This document shows, piece by piece, positions 5,012 through 61,411 of a stretch of 64,000 nucleotides of DNA. The notes beneath the pieces were generated by a model, which was not told the origin of the DNA, made no database searches, and was given only the letters and a program-made list of their open reading frames with translations. Where the stretch lies: assembly GCA_963846425.1 (NCBI GenBank), contig CAWJVW010000002.1, positions 265,667 through 329,666 on the forward strand. The letters run 5' to 3'. This DNA is from an uncultured Acidobacteriota bacterium. GTDB lineage: Bacteria > Acidobacteriota > Vicinamibacteria > Vicinamibacterales > UBA2999. A program made the position numbers and the translations under genes. How positions within the stretch are numbered: position 1 is the first letter of the stretch; each line of letters starts with the position of its first letter.

Positions 5012-7122
5012 CTACTCGCCGTTGGCGCTGTTACAGCAGAGAGAAGCTCGCTCACCAGCGCCTCCGCGCCGTAGACCTTGCGCAGCGCTTCGACCATCCC
5101 ACGCACGTCCACGGACACCGCGCGATTGACAGTCGCGTCGTAGACGAAATACGCCGGTAGCGATTGGATATTGCCGTCGAAGATCAACCCGACCAGTTCC
5201 CCGCGCGCGTTGATCACCGGCGAACCGCTGTTGCCGCCAACGATGTCGTTGGTGCTCACGAAGTTGTATGGTGTGTTCAGTGCGAGCGTGCTGCGCGCTT
5301 TGGCCCAGCTCGCCGGATATTTGTAGGGTGGCTTGTTCGCATGCTGATCGGCACGAACATACAACCCACGGAACTCTGTGGAGGACGGAATCGTCCTGCC
5401 GTCCTCCTGATACCCTTTCACCGCGCCATACGAGAGCCGCAGCGTGAATGTCCCATCTGGATACGCGGACTCGCCTTTCGTCGCAAACACCGCTTGCGCG
5501 ATCTTCGCGTACGCCTCGCGCTCGACAGCGATCAGCTCGTTGTCGTACTTGGCGCGCAGTTCCCGCGCGCGCGGCTCGATCGCCCGAGCGATCTCGATGA
5601 ATGGATCGGTTGACGTCTGTATCGCCCGCGCGCCACCCGCGAAGAGCTGCTTCCGAACCGCCTGATCGCCCAGCTTGGTTTTCTCCACGAGCTCGCTGGC
5701 ACGCACAGCCGCGGTCTTCCCCGCAAGAATCAGCTTCACGATGGCATGGTCCACGCCCAATTTGTCGCGCATGAGAGCCAACGACTCGGTCAGCTTTGCG
5801 TGTTCGAGACCGGGAGGAATGGACGCCACCGAACCAATCTGCCGTTCGATCGCGGGCTTGCGCGCGTCGGTGTATTCGGGCAGGCGCTCGCCGTTGGGTC
5901 GCTGGCTCTCGGCCGCCCAGCGGACGAGCGTGCGCGCCATCGTGAAGTAGTCGGAATAGAGAGCAAGCCCGCCCTCGATCATCACCCGCTCCAGGTTGTA
6001 GGACGGGAGTTGTCGCCGCGCGTTGGCGACGGCATCCCATGCGTCGGCGAAGCGGGCCTTGAGGTCGGGATTCGCCATGACCGCCGCGCGCAGCGCAGTC
6101 TCCGTCGCGACCTTCTTGTTCATGATGGCGGGGTCTTTCAAACCTTGCAGTTGGCCTTTCCACGACTTCAAGGAATTCTCGAGGCCAAAAAACAGATCCT
6201 GGGCTTCGCGTGCCTGCTCCGCGCCCCGCTTGCTGTACGCCTCGAGGGCGTTGCGAATACGCATATACATTTCGATATTGAGCGGCAGCGAGTGACCGCG
6301 AAGCTGCTCCAGATGCGCGACGGTGTTGAGCCGCTGCGTAACGGCTGGGTGACCTGAGGTGAACACGACTTCGCCGTCTTTGGTTCCGGCGGTCGACCAC
6401 GGAAGGAAATGCTTCACCGCAAGTGGCTTGCCGTTTTCATACACCCGGAACAGCGCCATGTCGAGTGCGTAGCGGGGGAACGTGAAATTGTCAGGGTCGC
6501 CACCGTAGAACGCGATATCGAACTCGGGCACGAACACCAGCCTGACGTCGGTGAATTTCTTGTATTGATAGAGGTGATACTGCGCACCTTGATACAGCGT
6601 TACCACGTCGCTTTGCAGGCCGGTCTTCGCCTCTGACCCCTCTTCGATTGCCGCAATTGATGCACGACGAGCCGCGAGCGCATCGGCCGATGACATCGCC
6701 GGCCGAACTGCCGCGTTCACCTGCGACGTCACATCCGCAATTGTTTGCAGCACGACGAGCTCGAGGTCCGGCGCCTTCAGCTCCTGTGCGCGATCTCTGG
6801 CGACGAATCCAGTCGTCACATAGTCGCGACCGGCTGTGCTCAACTTCTGGACGATATCCTGCACAACATGGTGGTTGGTGAGTACGAGCCCGTCAGCGGA
6901 GACAAACGAGCCCGACCCGCCCGGAAAGCGCACCGATGCCTGCTGCACGCGCTGCAACCACGCATCCGTCAGCTCGACACCATAGGCCTGCTTGATCGCC
7001 GCCTTCGGAATGCGATTGAACAGCCAGAACCCCTCGTCCGCCTGGACCGCGATCGGGATTGAAGCAACAAGTGCAAGGAGAACAATCGAGGCCCGGCTCC
7101 CGCACCGAACGACGTGCTTCAT
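5008..7122 (-). CDS. S46-family dipeptidyl-peptidase (DPP7/DPP11-like), exported
   Basis: Signal peptide followed by DEGFWLF. Catalytic motifs LVLTNHHV and GGNSGSPV. Start moved to ATG 7122 (MKHVVRCGS) ahead of the signal sequence. Confidence 0.88.
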   Translation of the reverse strand: MKHVVRCGSRASIVLLALVASIPIAVQADEGFWLFNRIPKAAIKQAYGVELTDAWLQRVQQASVRFPGGSGSFVSADGLVLTNHHVVQDIVQKLSTAGRDYVTTGFVARDRAQELKAPDLELVVLQTIADVTSQVNAAVRPAMSSADALAARRASIAAIEEGSEAKTGLQSDVVTLYQGAQYHLYQYKKFTDVRLVFVPEFDIAFYGGDPDNFTFPRYALDMALFRVYENGKPLAVKHFLPWSTAGTKDGEVVFTSGHPAVTQRLNTVAHLEQLRGHSLPLNIEMYMRIRNALEAYSKRGAEQAREAQDLFFGLENSLKSWKGQLQGLKDPAIMNKKVATETALRAAVMANPDLKARFADAWDAVANARRQLPSYNLERVMIEGGLALYSDYFTMARTLVRWAAESQRPNGERLPEYTDARKPAIERQIGSVASIPPGLEHAKLTESLALMRDKLGVDHAIVKLILAGKTAAVRASELVEKTKLGDQAVRKQLFAGGARAIQTSTDPFIEIARAIEPRARELRAKYDNELIAVEREAYAKIAQAVFATKGESAYPDGTFTLRLSYGAVKGYQEDGRTIPSSTEFRGLYVRADQHANKPPYKYPASWAKARSTLALNTPYNFVSTNDIVGGNSGSPVINARGELVGLIFDGNIQSLPAYFVYDATVNRAVSVDVRGMVEALRKVYGAEALVSELLSAVTAPTASR

Positions 7123-7170
7123 GATTCGATTGTAGCCGGAGCGTACTGAGACCGTCATGCGGCCGCGTTA

Positions 7171-7557
7171 TCACGGCACGTATGCAATACAGTCAATCTC
7201 GATTTTGAGGCCTTCTCCCGGCAGCCCAGCCGCCTGAATCGTCGTCCGCGCCGGACGGTGTTCGCCAAACATGCGCGAGTACACAGCGTTCATTTCCTGA
7301 AACTCACGCAAGTCGAGGAGGAACACGCCGCACCGCAGCACGTGCTGCAGACTCGATCCCGCGGCTTCGAGAATTGCCTCGACGTTCCGCAGGCATTGCT
7401 CGGTCTGCGCCGCGACGCTTGCTCCAGCCAGCTGACCGGTGGCGGGATCGGTTGCCCCCTGCCCGGAAACGAAGACGAGCCGATCGAATGCGACGCCCGG
7501 GGAGTATGGTCCGACGGGCTTGGGAAGGTTGGCAGCGTGAACAGGTCGATGAGTCAT
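7171..7557 (-). CDS. ridA: RidA/YjgF-family enamine/imine deaminase
   Basis: 128 aa with typical RidA length and sequence (PVGPYSPGV, VFVSGQ, IEIDCIA). Confidence 0.85.
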   Translation of the reverse strand: MTHRPVHAANLPKPVGPYSPGVAFDRLVFVSGQGATDPATGQLAGASVAAQTEQCLRNVEAILEAAGSSLQHVLRCGVFLLDLREFQEMNAVYSRMFGEHRPARTTIQAAGLPGEGLKIEIDCIAYVP

Positions 7558-7569
7558 GGTGAGATTGTA

Positions 7570-7706
7570 GAACTAAGAACGAAAAACGAAGAACGCGAAC
7601 CGGGAACGAGGAACAGGGAACGGAACTGCCGCAAACGCGTTGGTTGGTTCGGCGATGTCCGTTCCGTTCATTCGTTCTTCGTTCTTAGTTCTTCGTTCTT
7701 AGTTCG
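7570..7706. repeat. inverted pair of heptamer arrays: (GAACGAN)x8 at 7570-7626 and its reverse complement (NTCGTTC)x7 at 7657-7706
   Basis: I counted period 7 directly: gaactaa gaacgaa aaacgaa gaacgcg aaccggg aacgagg aacaggg aacggaa. The right arm reads ttcattcgttcttcgttcttagttcttcgttcttagttcg. It fills the 151-nt ridA/truA divergent spacer. Confidence 0.9.
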
Positions 7707-7708
7707 TT

Positions 7709-8527
7709 ATGATGCCCCCCGTGGCGCGGTTCAAGATCACGCTCGAGTATGCCGGTGGCCGTTACAGCGGCTGGCAGAAGCAGACCAATGCGCGGACGGT
7801 TCAGGGTGAAGTCGAGCGCGCGATTGCCGCAACCGTCGGCCATGGCGATTTCGAGTGTCAGGGCTCGGGCCGAACCGACGCAGGGGTCCATGCACTGATG
7901 CAGGTGGCCCACCTCGAGGTGCACTTGACCATGCCGCTGGAAAAGCTGCGTCGGCAGATCAACGACGAGCTGCCCTCGGACATCCATGTCCTCGCCATCA
8001 CGAAAGCGGTACACCGATTTCACGCCCGGCACGCCGCCGTCGGGCGGAGCTATCTCTATCAGGTTTCACGACGCCGGACGGCGTTCGCAAAGCCCTTCGT
8101 CTGGTGGGTCAAAGAGCCGCTCGACCTCGCGCTGATGACGGAGGCCGCCGCCCGGTTCTCCGGCATGCACGACTTCCGATCGTTCAGCGACGACGATCCG
8201 GACGACAAATCGACGGCAGTCCTTGTCGAGCAGGTGGCTCTCGCCGAAGAGGGCGATCTGATTCTGATTCGCGTCACCGGGTCGCACTTTCTGTGGAAGA
8301 TGGTCCGACGCATGGTCGGCGTGATCGTCGAGATCGGACGCGGGGGTCTGCCCGTTTCCGCGGTCGAGGATTTTCTCCGCAAGCCATCCGCGACTCCTGC
8401 GCGGCTGACGGCTCCCGCCTCGGGGCTGTTTCTCGAGCGAGTGTTTTACGAAGGCGACGACCGCGACTGGCCCCTGGTCTCCGCAATGCCGGTAGGCGTC
8501 GCGCCAGTGAAACGGCCAAGCAAGTAA
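7709..8527 (+). CDS. truA: tRNA pseudouridine(38-40) synthase TruA
   Basis: Catalytic motif GSGRTDAGVHA with typical TruA length and order. Confidence 0.9.
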   Translation: MMPPVARFKITLEYAGGRYSGWQKQTNARTVQGEVERAIAATVGHGDFECQGSGRTDAGVHALMQVAHLEVHLTMPLEKLRRQINDELPSDIHVLAITKAVHRFHARHAAVGRSYLYQVSRRRTAFAKPFVWWVKEPLDLALMTEAAARFSGMHDFRSFSDDDPDDKSTAVLVEQVALAEEGDLILIRVTGSHFLWKMVRRMVGVIVEIGRGGLPVSAVEDFLRKPSATPARLTAPASGLFLERVFYEGDDRDWPLVSAMPVGVAPVKRPSK

Positions 8528-8545: not shown

Positions 8546-8584
8546 GGTTTCTTACGACGGTTCCTAACGAGGGTTCCACGATTC
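8546..8584. repeat. three degenerate ~13-nt tandem units with a GGTTCC core (ggtttcttacgac ggttcctaacgag ggttccacgattc)
   Basis: Read directly. The core resembles the GGTTCCACG units inside the 26243-26388 array. Confidence 0.5.
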
Positions 8585-8643: not shown

Positions 8644-9213
8644 TTGCTGGCGCGCCTGCGCGCGGGCGACGAGGCCGCGTTCGAGACGCTGGTTCGCACC
8701 TATACGTCGCGTCTGCTCATCGTCGCGCGCCGCATCGTGGGCAACGAAGAGGATGCCCGCGACGTCATCCAGGACGCGTTTCTCTCGGCCTTCCGCAGCA
8801 TCGGCCGCTTTGCCGGCGACGCCCGGCTGTCGACCTGGCTGCATCGCATCGTCGTGAACACCGCGCTCATGAAGCTGCGCACACGGCGGCGAAAGCCAGA
8901 GGAATCGATTGAGCCGCTCCTGCCGGCCTTCCTGGCAGATGGCCATCATGCGGAACGGTTCACTGCGTGGACCGAGCGGGCCGATCAGGCGCTGGCGCGC
9001 AAGGAGACGCGAACTGCCGTCCGCCAGCACATCCAGGAGCTGCCGGAAGCCTTTCGTACCGTTTTGGTTCTCCGTGACATCGAAGGATTGAGCACCGAGG
9101 AAACTGCCCGCTTGCTTGAAACGACACCGAATGCGGTAAAGATTCGCCTACATCGCGCACGGCAGGCGCTGAGGACCCTTTTGGCGCCTCATTTTGCCAA
9201 GGGTGAACTGTGA
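8644..9213 (+). CDS. ECF-type RNA polymerase sigma factor
   Basis: Sigma-70 regions 2 and 4 (DARDVIQDAFLSAF; LSTEETARLLETTPNAVKIRLHRARQAL). TTG start. 4-nt overlap with the downstream anti-sigma gene. Confidence 0.88.
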   Translation: MLARLRAGDEAAFETLVRTYTSRLLIVARRIVGNEEDARDVIQDAFLSAFRSIGRFAGDARLSTWLHRIVVNTALMKLRTRRRKPEESIEPLLPAFLADGHHAERFTAWTERADQALARKETRTAVRQHIQELPEAFRTVLVLRDIEGLSTEETARLLETTPNAVKIRLHRARQALRTLLAPHFAKGEL

Positions 9214-47963: not shown

Positions 47964-48548
47964 TTACTGAACAACGATCGCTCGTCCCTTGTCGACGGCA
48001 ATGCTCCGGATCTCAGCGGGGAGTGCGAAGGGGTCGTCGATATTGATCCCACGCGGATTGTCATCCGTGCGCGTGTAGAACGAGACGATCTCCTGCAAGA
48101 AGGTCTTGGGAATGGGAATGCCGCTGACTTCAGCAGTTTCGAGGACGAAACGGCCCTGGCCGTCCTTGGTGTGCAAGACGCCGCTCGCCGTCACCGGCAG
48201 ACGGCCTGTGAGATAGCTCGTGGGATCGAACCAGCCGCCGCTGCTCTTTTTCTCGCGGATGACATCGAGATCGACAACCGCGCGTCCATTGAGCCGGCCC
48301 TGTCCCTGGATCCCGATGGAAGGGTCAGTGACGCCTACCGGTAGCTGCGAGCCTGCTCTGAAGCGAAGATAGGAATTCACCTCGCCCTCGGTGAGAATGG
48401 TCTGCCGCTCGCGATCGCTTGTCGATTCGGCGTGCCGGACGATCTGGGTGAGTTTTTGCTGGAAGGCGTCGGCCTGCTGCTGGGAAACGTTCGTGGGAGC
48501 GGCGCCCATGACCACGACTCCCGACAGATACAGTGCGAGGGCTTTCAT
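47964..48548 (-). CDS. exported hypothetical protein (last gene of the ECF envelope-stress operon)
   Basis: Signal-like N-terminus MKALALYLSGVVVMGAAP. It follows the LTXXQ protein gene after 21 nt. Confidence 0.55.
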   Translation of the reverse strand: MKALALYLSGVVVMGAAPTNVSQQQADAFQQKLTQIVRHAESTSDRERQTILTEGEVNSYLRFRAGSQLPVGVTDPSIGIQGQGRLNGRAVVDLDVIREKKSSGGWFDPTSYLTGRLPVTASGVLHTKDGQGRFVLETAEVSGIPIPKTFLQEIVSFYTRTDDNPRGINIDDPFALPAEIRSIAVDKGRAIVVQ

Positions 48549-59582: not shown

Positions 59583-59822
59583 CTACTTGGCTCTGAAGAG
59601 ATTGTGTTCGCCGCCACGGGCTTCGATCGTCGTGGCGGGACGCCGGCGGCGGTACCAGATGAAGATCGCGCCGGCGGCAAAGCCGGCGATGATGGCCGCG
59701 GCCATGATGACGCCCGTCAGGCCGAACGCGGCGACGGCCACCTGAATCATATCGATACTGGACGCCGGTTCCTTGACCACCTCGATGATGGTGATCGGCT
59801 GCGCGGGGGTGGCATTCTGCAT
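59583..59822 (-). CDS. small single-pass membrane protein, hypothetical
   Basis: 79 aa with one TM helix followed by YRRRR. Its ATG overlaps the pepA stop (TAATG). Confidence 0.5.
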   Translation of the reverse strand: MQNATPAQPITIIEVVKEPASSIDMIQVAVAAFGLTGVIMAAAIIAGFAAGAIFIWYRRRRPATTIEARGGEHNLFRAK

Positions 59823-61315
59823 TACGGCCAGTTCTTACCCGCAGTCCTCGCAACTTCGACAAGCGTTCGAATCATCACCCCCGTGGCGCCCTTGGGTGTC
59901 CACGGCCGTGCCTCGTCGGCCCACGCGGTCCCGGCAATGTCCAGATGCGCCCACGGCGTCGTCCCCACGAACTCCTTGAGGAACATCGCTGCCGTAATCG
60001 CGCCCGCAGGGCGGCCAGGACTGTTCAGCATGTCCGCGATCTCGCTTTTCAACGATTCCTTGTAATCGTCGAACAGGGGCATGGGCCAGACGCGCTCACC
60101 AGCGCGATCCGCGGCCGCGCGAACGATCTCGACCCATGCATCGCTCCCAAACAGACCTGTTGCGACCTTGCCGAGGGCCACCACACAGGCTCCGGTGAGT
60201 GTGGCGACGTCAACCATATGCGTCGCACCAAGATGTTGTGCGTACCAGAGAGCGTCGCCGAGAATCAGCCGTCCCTCGGCGTCGGTGTTATTGACTTCAA
60301 CGGTTAGTCCGGAGGCGCCGCGAAGGACATCCCCCGGCTTGATCGCACGACCGCCCGGCATGTTCTCGGTCGACGGCACGATCGCCATGGCGCGAATCGG
60401 AAGACGTTCGAGGGCGATGGCGCGCAATGCGGCCATCACCGTGGCACCGCCGGCCATGTCGTCCTTCATTCGCTCCATGCCATCGGCCGGCTTGAGCGAA
60501 ATGCCTCCGGTGTCGAACGTGATGCCTTTCCCGATGAGGCCGAGCACAGGAGCGACGGGGGCGCCCACAGGCTCGTAGCGGGCGACGAGCAGCCTCGGCG
60601 GCTCGTCGCTCCCACGCGCGACGCCCAGGAGCAGCCCCATTCCGAGCTCCTCCATCCGGTGTTCGTCGAGGACTTCTGTCGTGACACCTGGTACTGCGAG
60701 CAGAGACTGGCCGCGATCGGCAAACTCGCGTGGCGTGAGCCGATTGCCCGGCTCGTTGATGAGGACGCGGGCGGCATTGATTGCTTCGCCCACTCGCCCA
60801 CCTCGGTGGACCGTCGTGCCCGCGTCCGCAGCAGGAGTCGAGACTTCCACGGCGCTCACGAAGAACCGGGGATCGTCGCGGGTCTTGTAATGCCCGTTGT
60901 CGTAATTCGCGAGCGTGACGCCCTCGACCAGCGCTTCAATCCACGGGCCGGACCACGACTTGTCCAACGCAAACGCGATCCGCGCGTGGCGATGCTGGCG
61001 CGCCGCGAGGCCGACGCAGGCGCCCGCGCGCCGGATCCGCTCGATTGTGACTTCGGCGCGAGGTCCCATGCCCACGGCGAGAAACCGGCGACGTCCGTTC
61101 CCGCCAACGACGGAGGCGATCCAGATCTCGCATACCTTGCCGTTGAACTCCCCGCGTTGAAAGGCAGAATTGAGCTCCCCGCCCGTCGCATCGTTGAGCC
61201 AGCCGAACTCGCCGTTATGGTCCTGTGGAACTGCGATCGCAACCAGATCGGCATCGATCTGTGTCGCCGCGACGCGGCTCGTGGTGAATTGAGGAATCTC
61301 GTACGCCGGATGCAT
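59822..61315 (-). CDS. pepA: leucyl aminopeptidase (M17)
   Basis: NTDAEGRLILGDAL signature and metal ligands. ATG 61315 preferred. The track ORF extends to TTG 61372. Confidence 0.92.
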   Translation of the reverse strand: MHPAYEIPQFTTSRVAATQIDADLVAIAVPQDHNGEFGWLNDATGGELNSAFQRGEFNGKVCEIWIASVVGGNGRRRFLAVGMGPRAEVTIERIRRAGACVGLAARQHRHARIAFALDKSWSGPWIEALVEGVTLANYDNGHYKTRDDPRFFVSAVEVSTPAADAGTTVHRGGRVGEAINAARVLINEPGNRLTPREFADRGQSLLAVPGVTTEVLDEHRMEELGMGLLLGVARGSDEPPRLLVARYEPVGAPVAPVLGLIGKGITFDTGGISLKPADGMERMKDDMAGGATVMAALRAIALERLPIRAMAIVPSTENMPGGRAIKPGDVLRGASGLTVEVNNTDAEGRLILGDALWYAQHLGATHMVDVATLTGACVVALGKVATGLFGSDAWVEIVRAAADRAGERVWPMPLFDDYKESLKSEIADMLNSPGRPAGAITAAMFLKEFVGTTPWAHLDIAGTAWADEARPWTPKGATGVMIRTLVEVARTAGKNWP

Positions 61316-61411
61316 CTCTCCCCGCTGGAGCAAAGGTAGCAACGGCCGCTCGCGCGAGCGCGCGACGGCCAAACGATTAAGTGTAGCAGGGGAAAGACGG
61401 TGTCCTGAAGC

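What the first reader, a model, noticed from the sequence alone, without database searches (positions are those of the whole stretch)
7558..7708. A 151-nt divergent promoter region made almost entirely of an inverted heptamer-array pair
The spacer between ridA (start 7557, minus) and truA (ATG 7709) consists of (GAACGAN)x8, a 30-nt centre, then the reverse-complement array, which ends 2 nt before the truA ATG. No recognisable -35/-10 pair or Shine-Dalgarno is left outside the repeats. Transcription and translation signals for both genes must therefore be provided by repeat sequence, or the genes must be transcribed from further away. The architecture is symmetric: each gene sees the pyrimidine-rich arm proximally and the purine-rich arm distally.
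Basis: seen in the sequence. Interest (0 to 1): 0.6.

Follow-up and report, generated by a model that had tools for sequence, protein, structure and literature searches.

The report
Heptamer-repeat palindrome between two promoters
The gap between two back-to-back genes of a soil acidobacterium is filled by a fast-changing mirror-image run of 7-base repeats. The repeats sit exactly between the two genes' promoter "-10" boxes, so they most likely lie upstream of both messages rather than inside them.

Summary
GAAC recurs every 7 nt at 7570-7626. After a 34-nt centre, GTTC recurs every 7 nt at 7661-7706. The two arrays fold as a roughly 55-bp hairpin (z = -6).

The interpretation needs correcting. 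Relatives show that truA starts at the conserved GTG 7721, not ATG 7709. A TANNNT hexamer flanks the element on each side: TACAAT, then 6 nt, then the ridA ATG; and TATGAT, then 7 nt, then the truA GTG. This is the leaderless-promoter signature, and it is conserved across Vicinamibacterales. In compact relatives the two -10 boxes overlap. Here 138 bp of repeat DNA separates them.

The element belongs to a dispersed TTCGTTC/TTAGTTC heptamer family found at more than 120 metagenome loci. That family is rare between divergent genes.

A strain with 99% identical TruA has 99.7% and 97.5% identical flanks. Its element is 177 nt instead of 138 nt, with 13 substitutions and 39 gap positions. In contrast, the 20 nt next to the truA -10 box are 95% identical across six lineages whose third codon positions are saturated (48%).

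Best reading: a hypervariable palindromic minisatellite that grew from a conserved promoter-proximal repeat, is untranscribed here, and is tolerated because both promoters rely on their -10 boxes. No start sites could be mapped.

The parts
7171..7557 (-). ridA (RidA/L-PSP family), 128 aa, start ATG at 7557-7555
   Evidence: Pfam PF01042, E = 5e-36. The N-terminus MTHRP/MSHRP is conserved in relatives.
7564..7569 (-). -10-like hexamer TACAAT of ridA, 6 nt upstream of the ATG (leaderless-type arrangement)
   Evidence: Read from the sequence. TA[CG]AAT or GATAAT lies 5-8 nt before the ATG in L001, L002, L026, L004, L006, L010, L012, L014-L018 and L020. ATTGTA is also present in L202, L203, L208, L211 and L212, whatever lies upstream of it.
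7570..7626 (.). Left arm: 8-9 GAACNNN units. The outer units are AT-rich (GAACTAA, GAACGAA). The inner units are GC-richer (GGGAACN).
   Evidence: This arm is not conserved beyond the species. L202 has one extra unit plus substitutions. L212, L203 and L001 have unrelated sequence at this position.
7627..7660 (.). Centre (loop) of the palindrome, 34 nt, with a small internal hairpin
   Evidence: This is the most divergent part between the window and strain L202, with a 14-15-nt indel and many substitutions.
7661..7706 (.). Right arm: 7 NNNGTTC units, with an outer 14-nt super-unit CGTTCTTAGTTCTT repeated 2.9 times
7673..7707 (+). Conserved promoter-proximal block of the right arm (core 7688-7707, GTTCTTCGTTCTTAGTTCGT). 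It occupies the spacer, -35 and upstream positions of the truA promoter.
   Evidence: The 35 nt are 91-100% identical between the window, L202, L203, L206 and L194. The 20 nt next to the -10 box show 95% mean pairwise identity over 6 lineages, against 48% at truA third codon positions. The block is kept even in L213, where only about 2 units remain.
7708..7713 (+). -10-like hexamer TATGAT of truA, 7 nt upstream of GTG 7721
   Evidence: TAT(C/G)AT or another TANNNT lies 6-9 nt before the start codon in 37 of 81 relatives, with a sharp positional peak.
7709..7711 (+). It is probably part of the -10 box, not a start codon.
7721..8527 (+). truA (tRNA pseudouridine 38-40 synthase), read from the conserved GTG (MARFKITLEYAGG...)
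   Evidence: Pfam PF01416, E = 2e-34. The start codon aligns in 81 relatives.

Best explanation
The element is a palindromic heptamer minisatellite of the form (GAACNNN)n, centre, (NNNGTTC)n. It belongs to a dispersed TTCGTTC/TTAGTTC repeat family of soil Vicinamibacterales (Acidobacteriota).

It sits exactly between the -10 boxes of two back-to-back promoters of the leaderless type:
- ridA: TACAAT, 6 nt, ATG.
- truA: TATGAT, 7 nt, GTG at 7721.

It therefore most likely lies upstream of both transcription start sites and is in neither mRNA. Its hairpin potential would then be a trace of how it arose, not an RNA device at this locus.

Shown here:
1. The two hexamers and their spacing to the start codons are conserved in relatives.
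2. In compact relatives the two hexamers overlap, and the whole spacer is 10-27 nt.
3. The 20-35 nt next to the truA -10 box are conserved across lineages whose synonymous sites are saturated.
4. The rest of the element (left arm, centre, unit number) differs strongly between two strains with near-identical flanks.

Inferred:
1. Both promoters depend essentially on the -10 box alone, since every candidate -35 hexamer matches TTGACA at 2 of 6 positions or fewer. Because the DNA upstream is periodic, gain or loss of units does not change what lies next to the -10 box. That would explain why a slippage-prone array is tolerated here, although the family is otherwise rare between divergent genes.
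2. The array expanded by slippage from the conserved promoter-proximal units. The left arm is a young fold-back (template-switch) copy of it.
3. The net effect is to move two formerly overlapping promoters 138 bp apart, so that two polymerases can bind at once, and to give both the same T-rich upstream DNA.
For: Anatomy.

truA start at GTG 7721:
- In-frame stops lie upstream of it in 13 of 23 syntenic relatives.
- Strain L202 has lost ATG 7709.
- The ATG is out of frame in L203 and L212.

-10 signature:
- TANNNT lies 6-9 nt before the truA start in 37 of 81 relatives, against about 0.5 per other offset. A Shine-Dalgarno core is present in only 9 of 81.
- ridA hexamers.
- The same signature appears in 199 unrelated genes: 14 at a gap of 6 nt, against a background of about 1.2.
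- The published rule that TANNNT about 12 bp before the start marks leaderless genes in high-GC bacteria is in PMC3160421.

Compact relatives have overlapping hexamers, as in CATGCGGCATTATCATGAAGGCGCGTG.

Lineage L001/L211 lacks repeats and has TTGGCA/TTGGAA, 17 nt, TACCGT, 6 nt, GTG. That is a canonical -35 paired with a weaker -10.

Candidate -35 hexamers in the window score 2 of 6 or less.

Hypervariability, window against L202: the left flank is 291/292 identical and the right flank 97.5% identical, but the element is 138 nt against 177 nt, with 13 mismatches and 39 gap columns.

Conserved proximal block. Tree of the lineages.

Fold-back seed in L203: ACGAAGAAC-TTCT-GTTCTTCGT at the distal end of the array.

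Family:
- More than 120 metagenome loci carry the same 21-mer.
- One third of loci away from contig ends carry an inverted partner.
- Only 4 of 55 lie between divergent genes (p = 0.005).
- Eleven of 203 array flanks abut a TANNNT, start codon and ORF arrangement, against 7 of 920 random positions.
Against: - No transcription start site was measured. Soil metagenome and metatranscriptome contigs cover the locus at depth 2-5 and break at the repeat.
- One contig of unknown library type (X27) runs from ridA to 7580, 23 nt beyond the ATG. If it is RNA, it would argue against a leaderless ridA message.
- ATG 7712 remains in frame in the window and in L202, so a leadered truA start is not strictly excluded in this species.
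- The conserved proximal block is no more similar among the truA loci than it is to arrays at unrelated loci (L153 98% over 47 nt, L186 100% over 33 nt). Its conservation may therefore reflect a family-wide constraint rather than truA promoter function.
- L194 was found through the repeat itself, which is an ascertainment bias.
- The gene calls used for context statistics are my own crude codon-usage calls.
Confidence: 0.6

Rival explanations
1. The whole element is neutral junk with no functional part. Under this reading it is a slippage-prone minisatellite that happens to sit here. The cross-lineage identity of the truA-proximal units comes from family-wide homogenisation, through gene conversion among many dispersed copies or a sequence-specific generating process. 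Selection on the truA promoter plays no role.
For: - Arrays at unrelated metagenome loci match the window's right arm as well as the orthologous loci do.
- Array contexts are of every kind.
- There are 70 different units among 83 arrays across genomes.
- Relatives function with no array at all.
- The element is highly variable between strains.
Against: - The junction ...TTAGTTCG(C/T)-TANNAT is the same in seven or more lineages, including L213, where the array has shrunk to about 2 units.
- Neutral DNA should be randomised at this divergence, given 48% identity at third codon positions.
- No homogenising mechanism has been demonstrated.
Confidence: 0.22
2. The element is transcribed as a long structured 5' leader. 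Under this reading, the promoters lie further away inside the neighbouring coding regions. The roughly 55-bp hairpin then controls the stability or translation of ridA and truA mRNA.
For: - The predicted hairpin is very stable in either transcript direction.
- In the family's usual contexts, after stop codons and between convergent genes, such hairpins would be transcribed.
- Metatranscriptome contigs contain arrays of the family.
- Contig X27 reaches 7580.
Against: - Conserved TANNNT hexamers lie at leaderless distance on both sides.
- There is no Shine-Dalgarno between the element and either start codon: CTCACC before the ATG and GCCCCCC before the GTG.
- Compact relatives leave 10-27 nt in total, so no leader is possible there.
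- The left arm and centre are not conserved even within the species.
Confidence: 0.08
3. The heptamer arrays are binding sites for a lineage-specific DNA-binding protein, such as a transcription factor or nucleoid protein. That protein would co-regulate ridA and truA from the symmetric array. This is analogous to the TTTTGAT heptads upstream of the Vibrio cholerae ctxAB promoter.
For: - The unit sequence is conserved across loci and lineages.
- The arrays sit at the -35 and upstream positions of at least 10 promoters that lack a -35.
- Both genes see the same T-rich sequence.
Against: - Most family members are not near promoters and lie in either orientation.
- Other genomes use quite different units at the same site.
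- A 7-bp period puts successive sites on different faces of the helix.
Confidence: 0.08
4. The palindrome extrudes as a DNA cruciform under the negative supercoiling produced between divergently transcribing polymerases. It would then act as a supercoil-sensitive coupler or insulator of the two promoters.
For: - The inverted repeat lies precisely between divergent promoters.
- The predicted single-strand DNA hairpin is stable, at -41 kcal/mol with z = -6.9.
Against: - The arms are imperfect, at 72% over 53 nt.
- The centre is 34-48 nt, which by general knowledge strongly disfavours extrusion.
- The left arm is absent in sister lineages.
- Pairs of this family are otherwise not found between divergent genes: 0 of 16 GAAC-then-GTTC pairs with both neighbours called.
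Confidence: 0.02

Closest known systems
Intergenic GGGAATC heptamer repeats of Xanthomonas campestris and X. axonopodis, including their inverted pairs (Rehm et al. 2015, PMC4692102)
   Same: - Tandem 7-nt units are dispersed over the genome and enriched in non-coding DNA.
- Copy number is variable.
- There are 70-75 cases per genome of two arrays on opposite strands close together that could form stem-loops.
- Only 7-8% lie between divergent ORFs. Here the figure is 4 of 55.
   Different: - The Xanthomonas units are G-rich and form G-quadruplexes, with a preference for four units. GAACGAA/TTCGTTC has no G-tracts.
- The Vicinamibacterales genomes use many different unit families.
- A position between two -10 boxes of leaderless promoters has not been described for Xanthomonas.
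- The Xanthomonas repeats are mostly transcribed, whereas this one is inferred not to be.
Cyanobacterial STRR heptamers and TAACTGA heptamer repeats of Beggiatoaceae, Cyanobacteria and Bacteroidetes (MacGregor 2015, PMC4679880)
   Same: - Lineage-typical heptamer direct repeats lie in intergenic DNA, often within a few nucleotides of a start codon.
[quoted passage not shown]
   Different: - The TAACTGA sets are almost all direct: 169 direct against 1 indirect.
[quoted passage not shown]
- Here the array is paired, of different sequence, and inferred to be upstream of the start sites.
TTTTGAT heptad repeats upstream of the Vibrio cholerae ctxAB promoter (bioRxiv 10.1101/2021.05.14.444153, abstract seen)
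   Same: A heptamer array of variable copy number lies immediately upstream of a promoter core, in the -35 and upstream region.
   Different: - The ctx heptads are a single-locus binding array for known regulators.
- Here the family is dispersed over many contexts, and no binding protein is known.
REP/BIME elements and promoter-carrying MITEs such as the Neisseria Correia element (from general knowledge)
   Same: - These are dispersed, hairpin-forming intergenic elements.
- Their family consensus is conserved, while presence at a given locus varies between strains.
- Correia elements can contribute promoter sequence to neighbouring genes.
   Different: - This element has no fixed length: 138 nt against 177 nt in two strains.
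- Its arms are internally periodic.
- No target-site duplication is visible at 7564-7713.
Leaderless genes with a -10 box about 12 bp upstream of the start codon in high-GC bacteria (Zheng et al. 2011, PMC3160421), and back-to-back overlapping divergent promoters
   Same: - TANNNT has its first T 12-13 nt before the start codon on both sides.
- No Shine-Dalgarno is present.
- GTG or ATG serves as the start codon.
- The arrangement is conserved across relatives.
   Different: - A repeat palindrome inserted between the two -10 boxes is not part of that description.
- Leaderless initiation in Vicinamibacterales has not been shown experimentally, as far as the searched library reveals.

Membership tests
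Long simple-sequence-repeat (heptamer) arrays with inverted pairs, Xanthomonas type (Rehm 2015) | Head-to-tail units of 6-9 nt, three or more copies | tested here: met
Long simple-sequence-repeat (heptamer) arrays with inverted pairs, Xanthomonas type (Rehm 2015) | Dispersed over many loci and enriched in non-coding DNA | tested here: met
   More than 120 metagenome loci carry the same 21-mer. In the window plus 80 related loci there are 1.6 arrays per kb of non-coding DNA, against 0.08 per kb of coding DNA.
Long simple-sequence-repeat (heptamer) arrays with inverted pairs, Xanthomonas type (Rehm 2015) | Copy number differs between strains or relatives | tested here: met
   The window has 138 nt and L202 has 177 nt, with near-identical flanks. 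Across lineages the array ranges from 2 to 13 or more units.
Long simple-sequence-repeat (heptamer) arrays with inverted pairs, Xanthomonas type (Rehm 2015) | A subset occurs as two arrays on opposite strands close together | tested here: met
   34 of 103 loci away from contig ends have an inverted partner: 25 as GAAC then GTTC, and 9 in the reverse order.
Long simple-sequence-repeat (heptamer) arrays with inverted pairs, Xanthomonas type (Rehm 2015) | G-rich unit able to form a G-quadruplex | tested here: not met
   The units GAACGAA, GAACTAA and TTCGTTC contain no G-tracts.
Sigma-70-type promoter of a leaderless gene | TANNNT hexamer 5-9 nt upstream of the start codon, with no Shine-Dalgarno | tested here: met
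   TACAAT-6-ATG and TATGAT-7-GTG. The intervening CTCACC and GCCCCCC are not Shine-Dalgarno-like.
Sigma-70-type promoter of a leaderless gene | The hexamer and its spacing are conserved in orthologues | tested here: met
   37 of 81 truA relatives show it, with a sharp positional peak. Most ridA relatives show it too.
Sigma-70-type promoter of a leaderless gene | -35 hexamer 16-18 nt upstream | tested here: not met
   The best candidates match TTGACA at 2 of 6 positions on either side. The repeat-free lineage L001/L211 does have TTGGCA/TTGGAA at 17 nt.
Sigma-70-type promoter of a leaderless gene | Transcription start at, or within a few nt of, the start codon | not testable with these tools
   The runs found are soil metagenomes and metatranscriptomes held as low-depth contigs that break at the repeat.
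MITE (e.g. Correia element) | Fixed-length element with terminal inverted repeats and a target-site duplication | tested here: not met
   The length differs between strains. The family ranges from 3 to 20 units. The flanks ATTGTA|...|GTTATG are not a direct repeat.
REP/BIME | Dispersed imperfect palindromes with a cognate RAYT transposase in the genome | not tested
The periodic internal structure is unlike REP.
Intrinsic (bidirectional) terminator | GC-rich short hairpin followed by a U-tract, placed downstream of a gene | tested here: not met
   No terminator-like site was found in 7100-8100. The element lies at the 5' ends of both genes.
Phase-variable promoter repeat (contingency locus) | Unit gain or loss changes the -35 to -10 spacing or the reading frame, and so switches expression | tested here: inconclusive
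   Unit number does vary. However, the units next to both -10 boxes are unchanged between the strains and no -35 is recognisable, so no switch is predicted. Expression was not measured.
Known structured RNA families (Rfam 15) | A match reaching the family's gathering score | tested here: not met
   The only match is a plant miRNA-precursor model at 23 bits, against a gathering score of 135. This is a generic hairpin match.

The most novel reading that the evidence does not exclude
TTCGTTC/TTAGTTC arrays may be recognised sequence-specifically, either by RNA polymerase itself or by a lineage-specific factor, and act as portable upstream modules for promoters that lack a -35. The fold-back copy at this locus would then create a symmetric bidirectional promoter cassette driving two leaderless genes. 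Constraint on the unit sequence would explain why the same 14-mer is kept at many loci and across lineages whose synonymous sites are saturated.
Probability: 0.12. Interest if true: 0.75.

Novelty: new variant of a known kind. Interest (0 to 1): 0.45.

Why it matters
- Comparison alone corrects a gene start and locates two promoters in an uncultured soil lineage.
- It suggests that leaderless, -10-only promoters are common in Vicinamibacterales.
- It gives a concrete case in which a hypervariable repeat and a strongly conserved 20-nt repeat-derived block sit side by side.
- If the conserved block is a working promoter part, repeat families of this kind would be a source of promoter DNA and not only filler.
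- If it is not, some unknown process keeps a 14-nt unit constant across species, which is itself unexplained.
- The edges of such arrays may serve as practical markers of where functional signals begin in these compact genomes.

Tried and rejected
I used 80 related loci and 120 metagenome loci instead.
2. Start-site mapping and copy-number polymorphism from public runs. The DNA and RNA runs are soil samples kept as contigs at depth 2-5, and these break at the repeat. The repeat itself attracts hundreds of foreign contigs. Nothing usable came of this except proof that the unit is abundant in soil.
3. Known RNA family: none found.
4. Consensus promoter and terminator scan: nothing in the spacer.
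5. Homology of the spacer to the spacers of the closest relatives: none above shuffled controls, apart from a marginal match to another GAAC-type array in L007.
6. LexA box. From memory, alphaproteobacterial and Acidobacterium LexA sites are GTTC-N7-GTTC. No pair of GAAC or GTTC cores here lies 11 nt apart (positions). Rejected.
7. Orthology of L194 to the window's array, judged by similarity alone. Rejected as evidence, because unrelated loci match equally well. The argument was rebuilt on lineages found through TruA similarity.
8. MITE or target-site-duplication reading: rejected.
9. Exact-protein look-up of RidA: returned only the source contig.

Full report
**Observation**

The region 7558-7708 lies between ridA (7171-7557, minus strand; Pfam Ribonuc_L-PSP) and truA (PseudoU_synth_1).
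- GAAC cores recur at 7-nt steps from 7570 to 7623, and GTTC cores from 7661 to 7702.
- Tandem Repeats Finder reports the right arm as period 7, or as period 14 at 92%.
- The outer 26 nt of the two arms are 92% complementary.
- The pattern GAACN3GAACN3GAAC occurs 7 times in the window, all at this locus, against 0.38 expected.
- The region folds at -65.6 kcal/mol as RNA (z = -6.2) and at -41.1 kcal/mol as DNA (z = -6.9). The stem runs from 7570 to 7705.

The description is therefore correct and far from chance.

**The gene starts and the promoters**

I fetched 80 truA relatives. All are Vicinamibacterales or Acidobacteriota MAGs, and the best shares 84% identity. Twenty-three keep the divergent ridA/truA arrangement.

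The truA start is GTG 7721, not ATG 7709:
- Aligning the 5' ends shows that every relative starts at a GTG or ATG that aligns with window 7721 (MARFKITLEYAGG...).
- In 13 of the 23 syntenic relatives, an in-frame stop lies upstream of that codon.
- A strain with 99% identical TruA has lost ATG 7709.
- In L203 and L212 the ATG embedded in TATGAT is out of frame.

A TANNNT hexamer lies 6-9 nt before the truA start in 37 of 81 relatives, with a sharp peak at 8 nt. The background is about 0.5 per other offset, and only 9 of 81 have a Shine-Dalgarno core. In the window the hexamer is TATGAT (7708-7713), 7 nt before the GTG.

For ridA, the reverse complement of 7564-7569 is TACAAT, 6 nt before the ATG. 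The same hexamer, or TAGAAT or GATAAT, stands 5-8 nt before the ATG in most relatives.

This is the published signature of leaderless genes in high-GC bacteria (PMC3160421). It also appears in 199 unrelated genes of these loci: 14 at a gap of 6 nt, against a background of about 1.2.

The two hexamers lie immediately outside the hairpin on either side. No -35 is recognisable, as candidates match at 2 of 6 positions or fewer.

The repeat-free sister lineage L001/L211 instead has TTGGCA or TTGGAA, 17 nt, TACCGT, 6 nt, GTG. That is a good -35 paired with a weaker -10, which supports the promoter assignment.

**What relatives have in this spacer**
- In at least ten relatives the whole spacer is 10-27 nt (CATGCGGCATTATCATGAAGGCGCGTG), and the two -10 hexamers overlap (ATTATC and TATCAT).
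- Other relatives have 54-204 nt filled with different repeats: CCAGTTN/AACTGGN pairs in L003; CCACAGAG pairs in L011; CACGGAG pairs in L013; GTTAAGA in L021; and AACTTGT in L002, L026 and L210.
- L208 carries an ACTTGTC/GACAAGT pair.
- The window's spacer shows no homology to those of its closest relatives.

**Dynamics**

L202 is a JGI soil contig whose TruA is 99% identical to the window's.

| Region (window against L202) | Result |
|---|---|
| ridA side | 291/292 identical |
| truA side, 1338 nt | 97.5% identical |
| Element | 138 nt against 177 nt; 13 mismatches; 39 gap columns in at least five indels |

L202 has one extra unit in the left arm, 16 extra nt in the right arm and 14-15 extra nt in the centre. 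Both -10 hexamers are kept: TACAAT is unchanged, and TATGAT becomes TATCAT.

In contrast, the part of the right arm next to the truA -10 box is strikingly stable:
- Lineages found only through TruA similarity carry ...TTCGTTCTTAGTTCG-C-TATGAT-N6-GTG. These are L203-205 and L209 at 88%, L206-207 at 86-89%, and L212 and L213 at 83%. L194, at 73%, was found through the repeat and carries it too.
- This holds whether the upstream neighbour is ridA or an inserted DinB_2 gene, and whether the array has about 2 units (L213) or 13 or more (L206).
- Over six lineages, the 20 nt upstream of the -10 box are 95% identical on average, while truA third codon positions are 48% identical.
- In a TruA tree these lineages fall in one supported clade (96/93), together with the repeat-free L001 and the AACTTGT-type lineages. 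The TTCGTTC array at this promoter is therefore probably ancestral to the clade, later replaced or lost in some branches.
- The left arm is present only in the window and L202.
- L203 shows a 9-bp fold-back (ACGAAGAAC-TTCT-GTTCTTCGT) at the distal end of its array. This looks like the first step towards a second arm.

**The family**

- Of the 103 arrays away from contig ends, 25 have a GAAC array upstream as in the window, 9 have one downstream, and 69 are single.
- Contexts with both neighbours called are: 35 co-directional, 16 convergent and only 4 divergent. That is 7%, against 21% of spacers (p = 0.005).
- This resembles the 7-8% reported for Xanthomonas heptamers (PMC4692102).
- Arrays often run right up to a stop codon, or to a TANNNT hexamer followed by a start codon. 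The latter occurs at 11 of 203 flanks, against 7 of 920 random positions.
- In the window plus 80 related loci, arrays of period 6-10 are about 19 times denser in non-coding DNA. The 83 non-coding arrays use 70 different units.
- Arrays at unrelated loci match the window's right arm as well as the orthologous ones do. The cross-lineage conservation at truA therefore cannot be assigned with certainty to promoter function.

**Reading**

The most economical account has four parts.
1. In this clade the truA promoter carries two or more TTCGTTC/TTAGTTC units directly upstream of a strong -10 box and has no -35.
2. Slippage expands and contracts the array distally.
3. In the window's species, a fold-back copy created the left arm and so a palindrome.
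4. The element is tolerated between divergent genes, where the family is otherwise rare. Both promoters depend on their -10 boxes, both messages are leaderless, and periodic DNA looks the same next to the -10 box whatever the unit number.

The element would then be untranscribed. Its main physical effect would be to separate two promoters that overlap in compact relatives by 138 bp. Start codon to start codon is 164 bp, against about 25 bp in compact relatives.

All functional steps are inferred, and no start site was measured.

**Known comparators and novelty**

The closest described systems are:
- the Xanthomonas GGGAATC heptamers with their inverted pairs;
- cyanobacterial STRR and TAACTGA heptamers;
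- the ctxAB TTTTGAT heptads;
- REP- and Correia-type elements.

None of these matches in unit type, variety of units, or placement between two leaderless -10 boxes. I found no paper on such repeats in Vicinamibacterales.

Earlier notes of this scan had already recognised the repeat class in this genome. New here are the corrected truA start, the flanking -10 boxes, the strain-level hypervariability, and the deep conservation of the promoter-proximal block.

**Limits**
- The context statistics rest on my own crude gene calls.
- L194 was ascertained through the repeat.

Noticed in passing
Comparison puts the start at GTG 7721, giving 268 aa. The ATGATG is part of, or overlaps, the -10 hexamer TATGAT.
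   Followed up: yes
window 2527, 51155, 47964-48548 (minus strand), 59822-61372 (minus strand); 199 genes in L001-L080: A leaderless-type signature is common in these Vicinamibacterales loci. TANNNT ends 6 nt before the predicted start in 14 of 199 genes, against a background of about 1.2. One example is TATAAT 8 nt before ATG 2527.
   Followed up: partly
L203 844-1455, L205, L206 691-1296, L213: In several sister lineages a DinB_2-family gene sits between ridA and truA. The TTCGTTC array stays attached to truA, while ridA keeps its ATTGTA hexamer.
   Followed up: partly
metagenome loci L089, L107, L108, L111, L114, L151, L164, L168, L181, L189: Many arrays of the family run directly into the reverse complement of a stop codon (TTA, TCA or CTA) of a convergent gene. 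The unit GAACTAA itself contains TAA, so the repeat may sometimes supply the stop codon.
   Followed up: no
window 7660-7707 in runs X1-X4 and X25-X28: The TTCGTTC array attracts contigs at summed depth up to about 1600 in soil metagenomes, and 8-69 in metatranscriptome assemblies, while the flanks have depth 2-5. The unit is therefore very abundant in soil communities and is present in RNA libraries, though DNA carry-over is not excluded.
   Followed up: no
window 8546-8577: A degenerate 13-nt repeat (GGTTCCTAACGAC, 2.5 copies) lies in the spacer between the truA stop and the ECF sigma-factor gene at 8644-9213.
   Followed up: no
L012, L022, L046 (labelled Bifidobacteriaceae), L013 (Acidimicrobiia), L047 (archaeon), L067 (Bacteroidota), L077 (Ignavibacteria): These MAG records carry taxonomic labels that disagree with their TruA sequence and synteny. 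By both, they group inside Vicinamibacterales. This points to probable mislabelling or mis-binning.
   Followed up: no
window 20853, 26243, 27923, 31070, 39707/39756, 41496/41572, 45399, 47551, 52288, 62485/62549: At least ten further intergenic arrays of 7-8-nt units occur in the window: AAGGCAN, GGTTCAGA, GACCGGA/CGGTCGC and CCACGG. Three of them are inverted pairs. Units recur within this genome but differ between genomes.
   Followed up: partly
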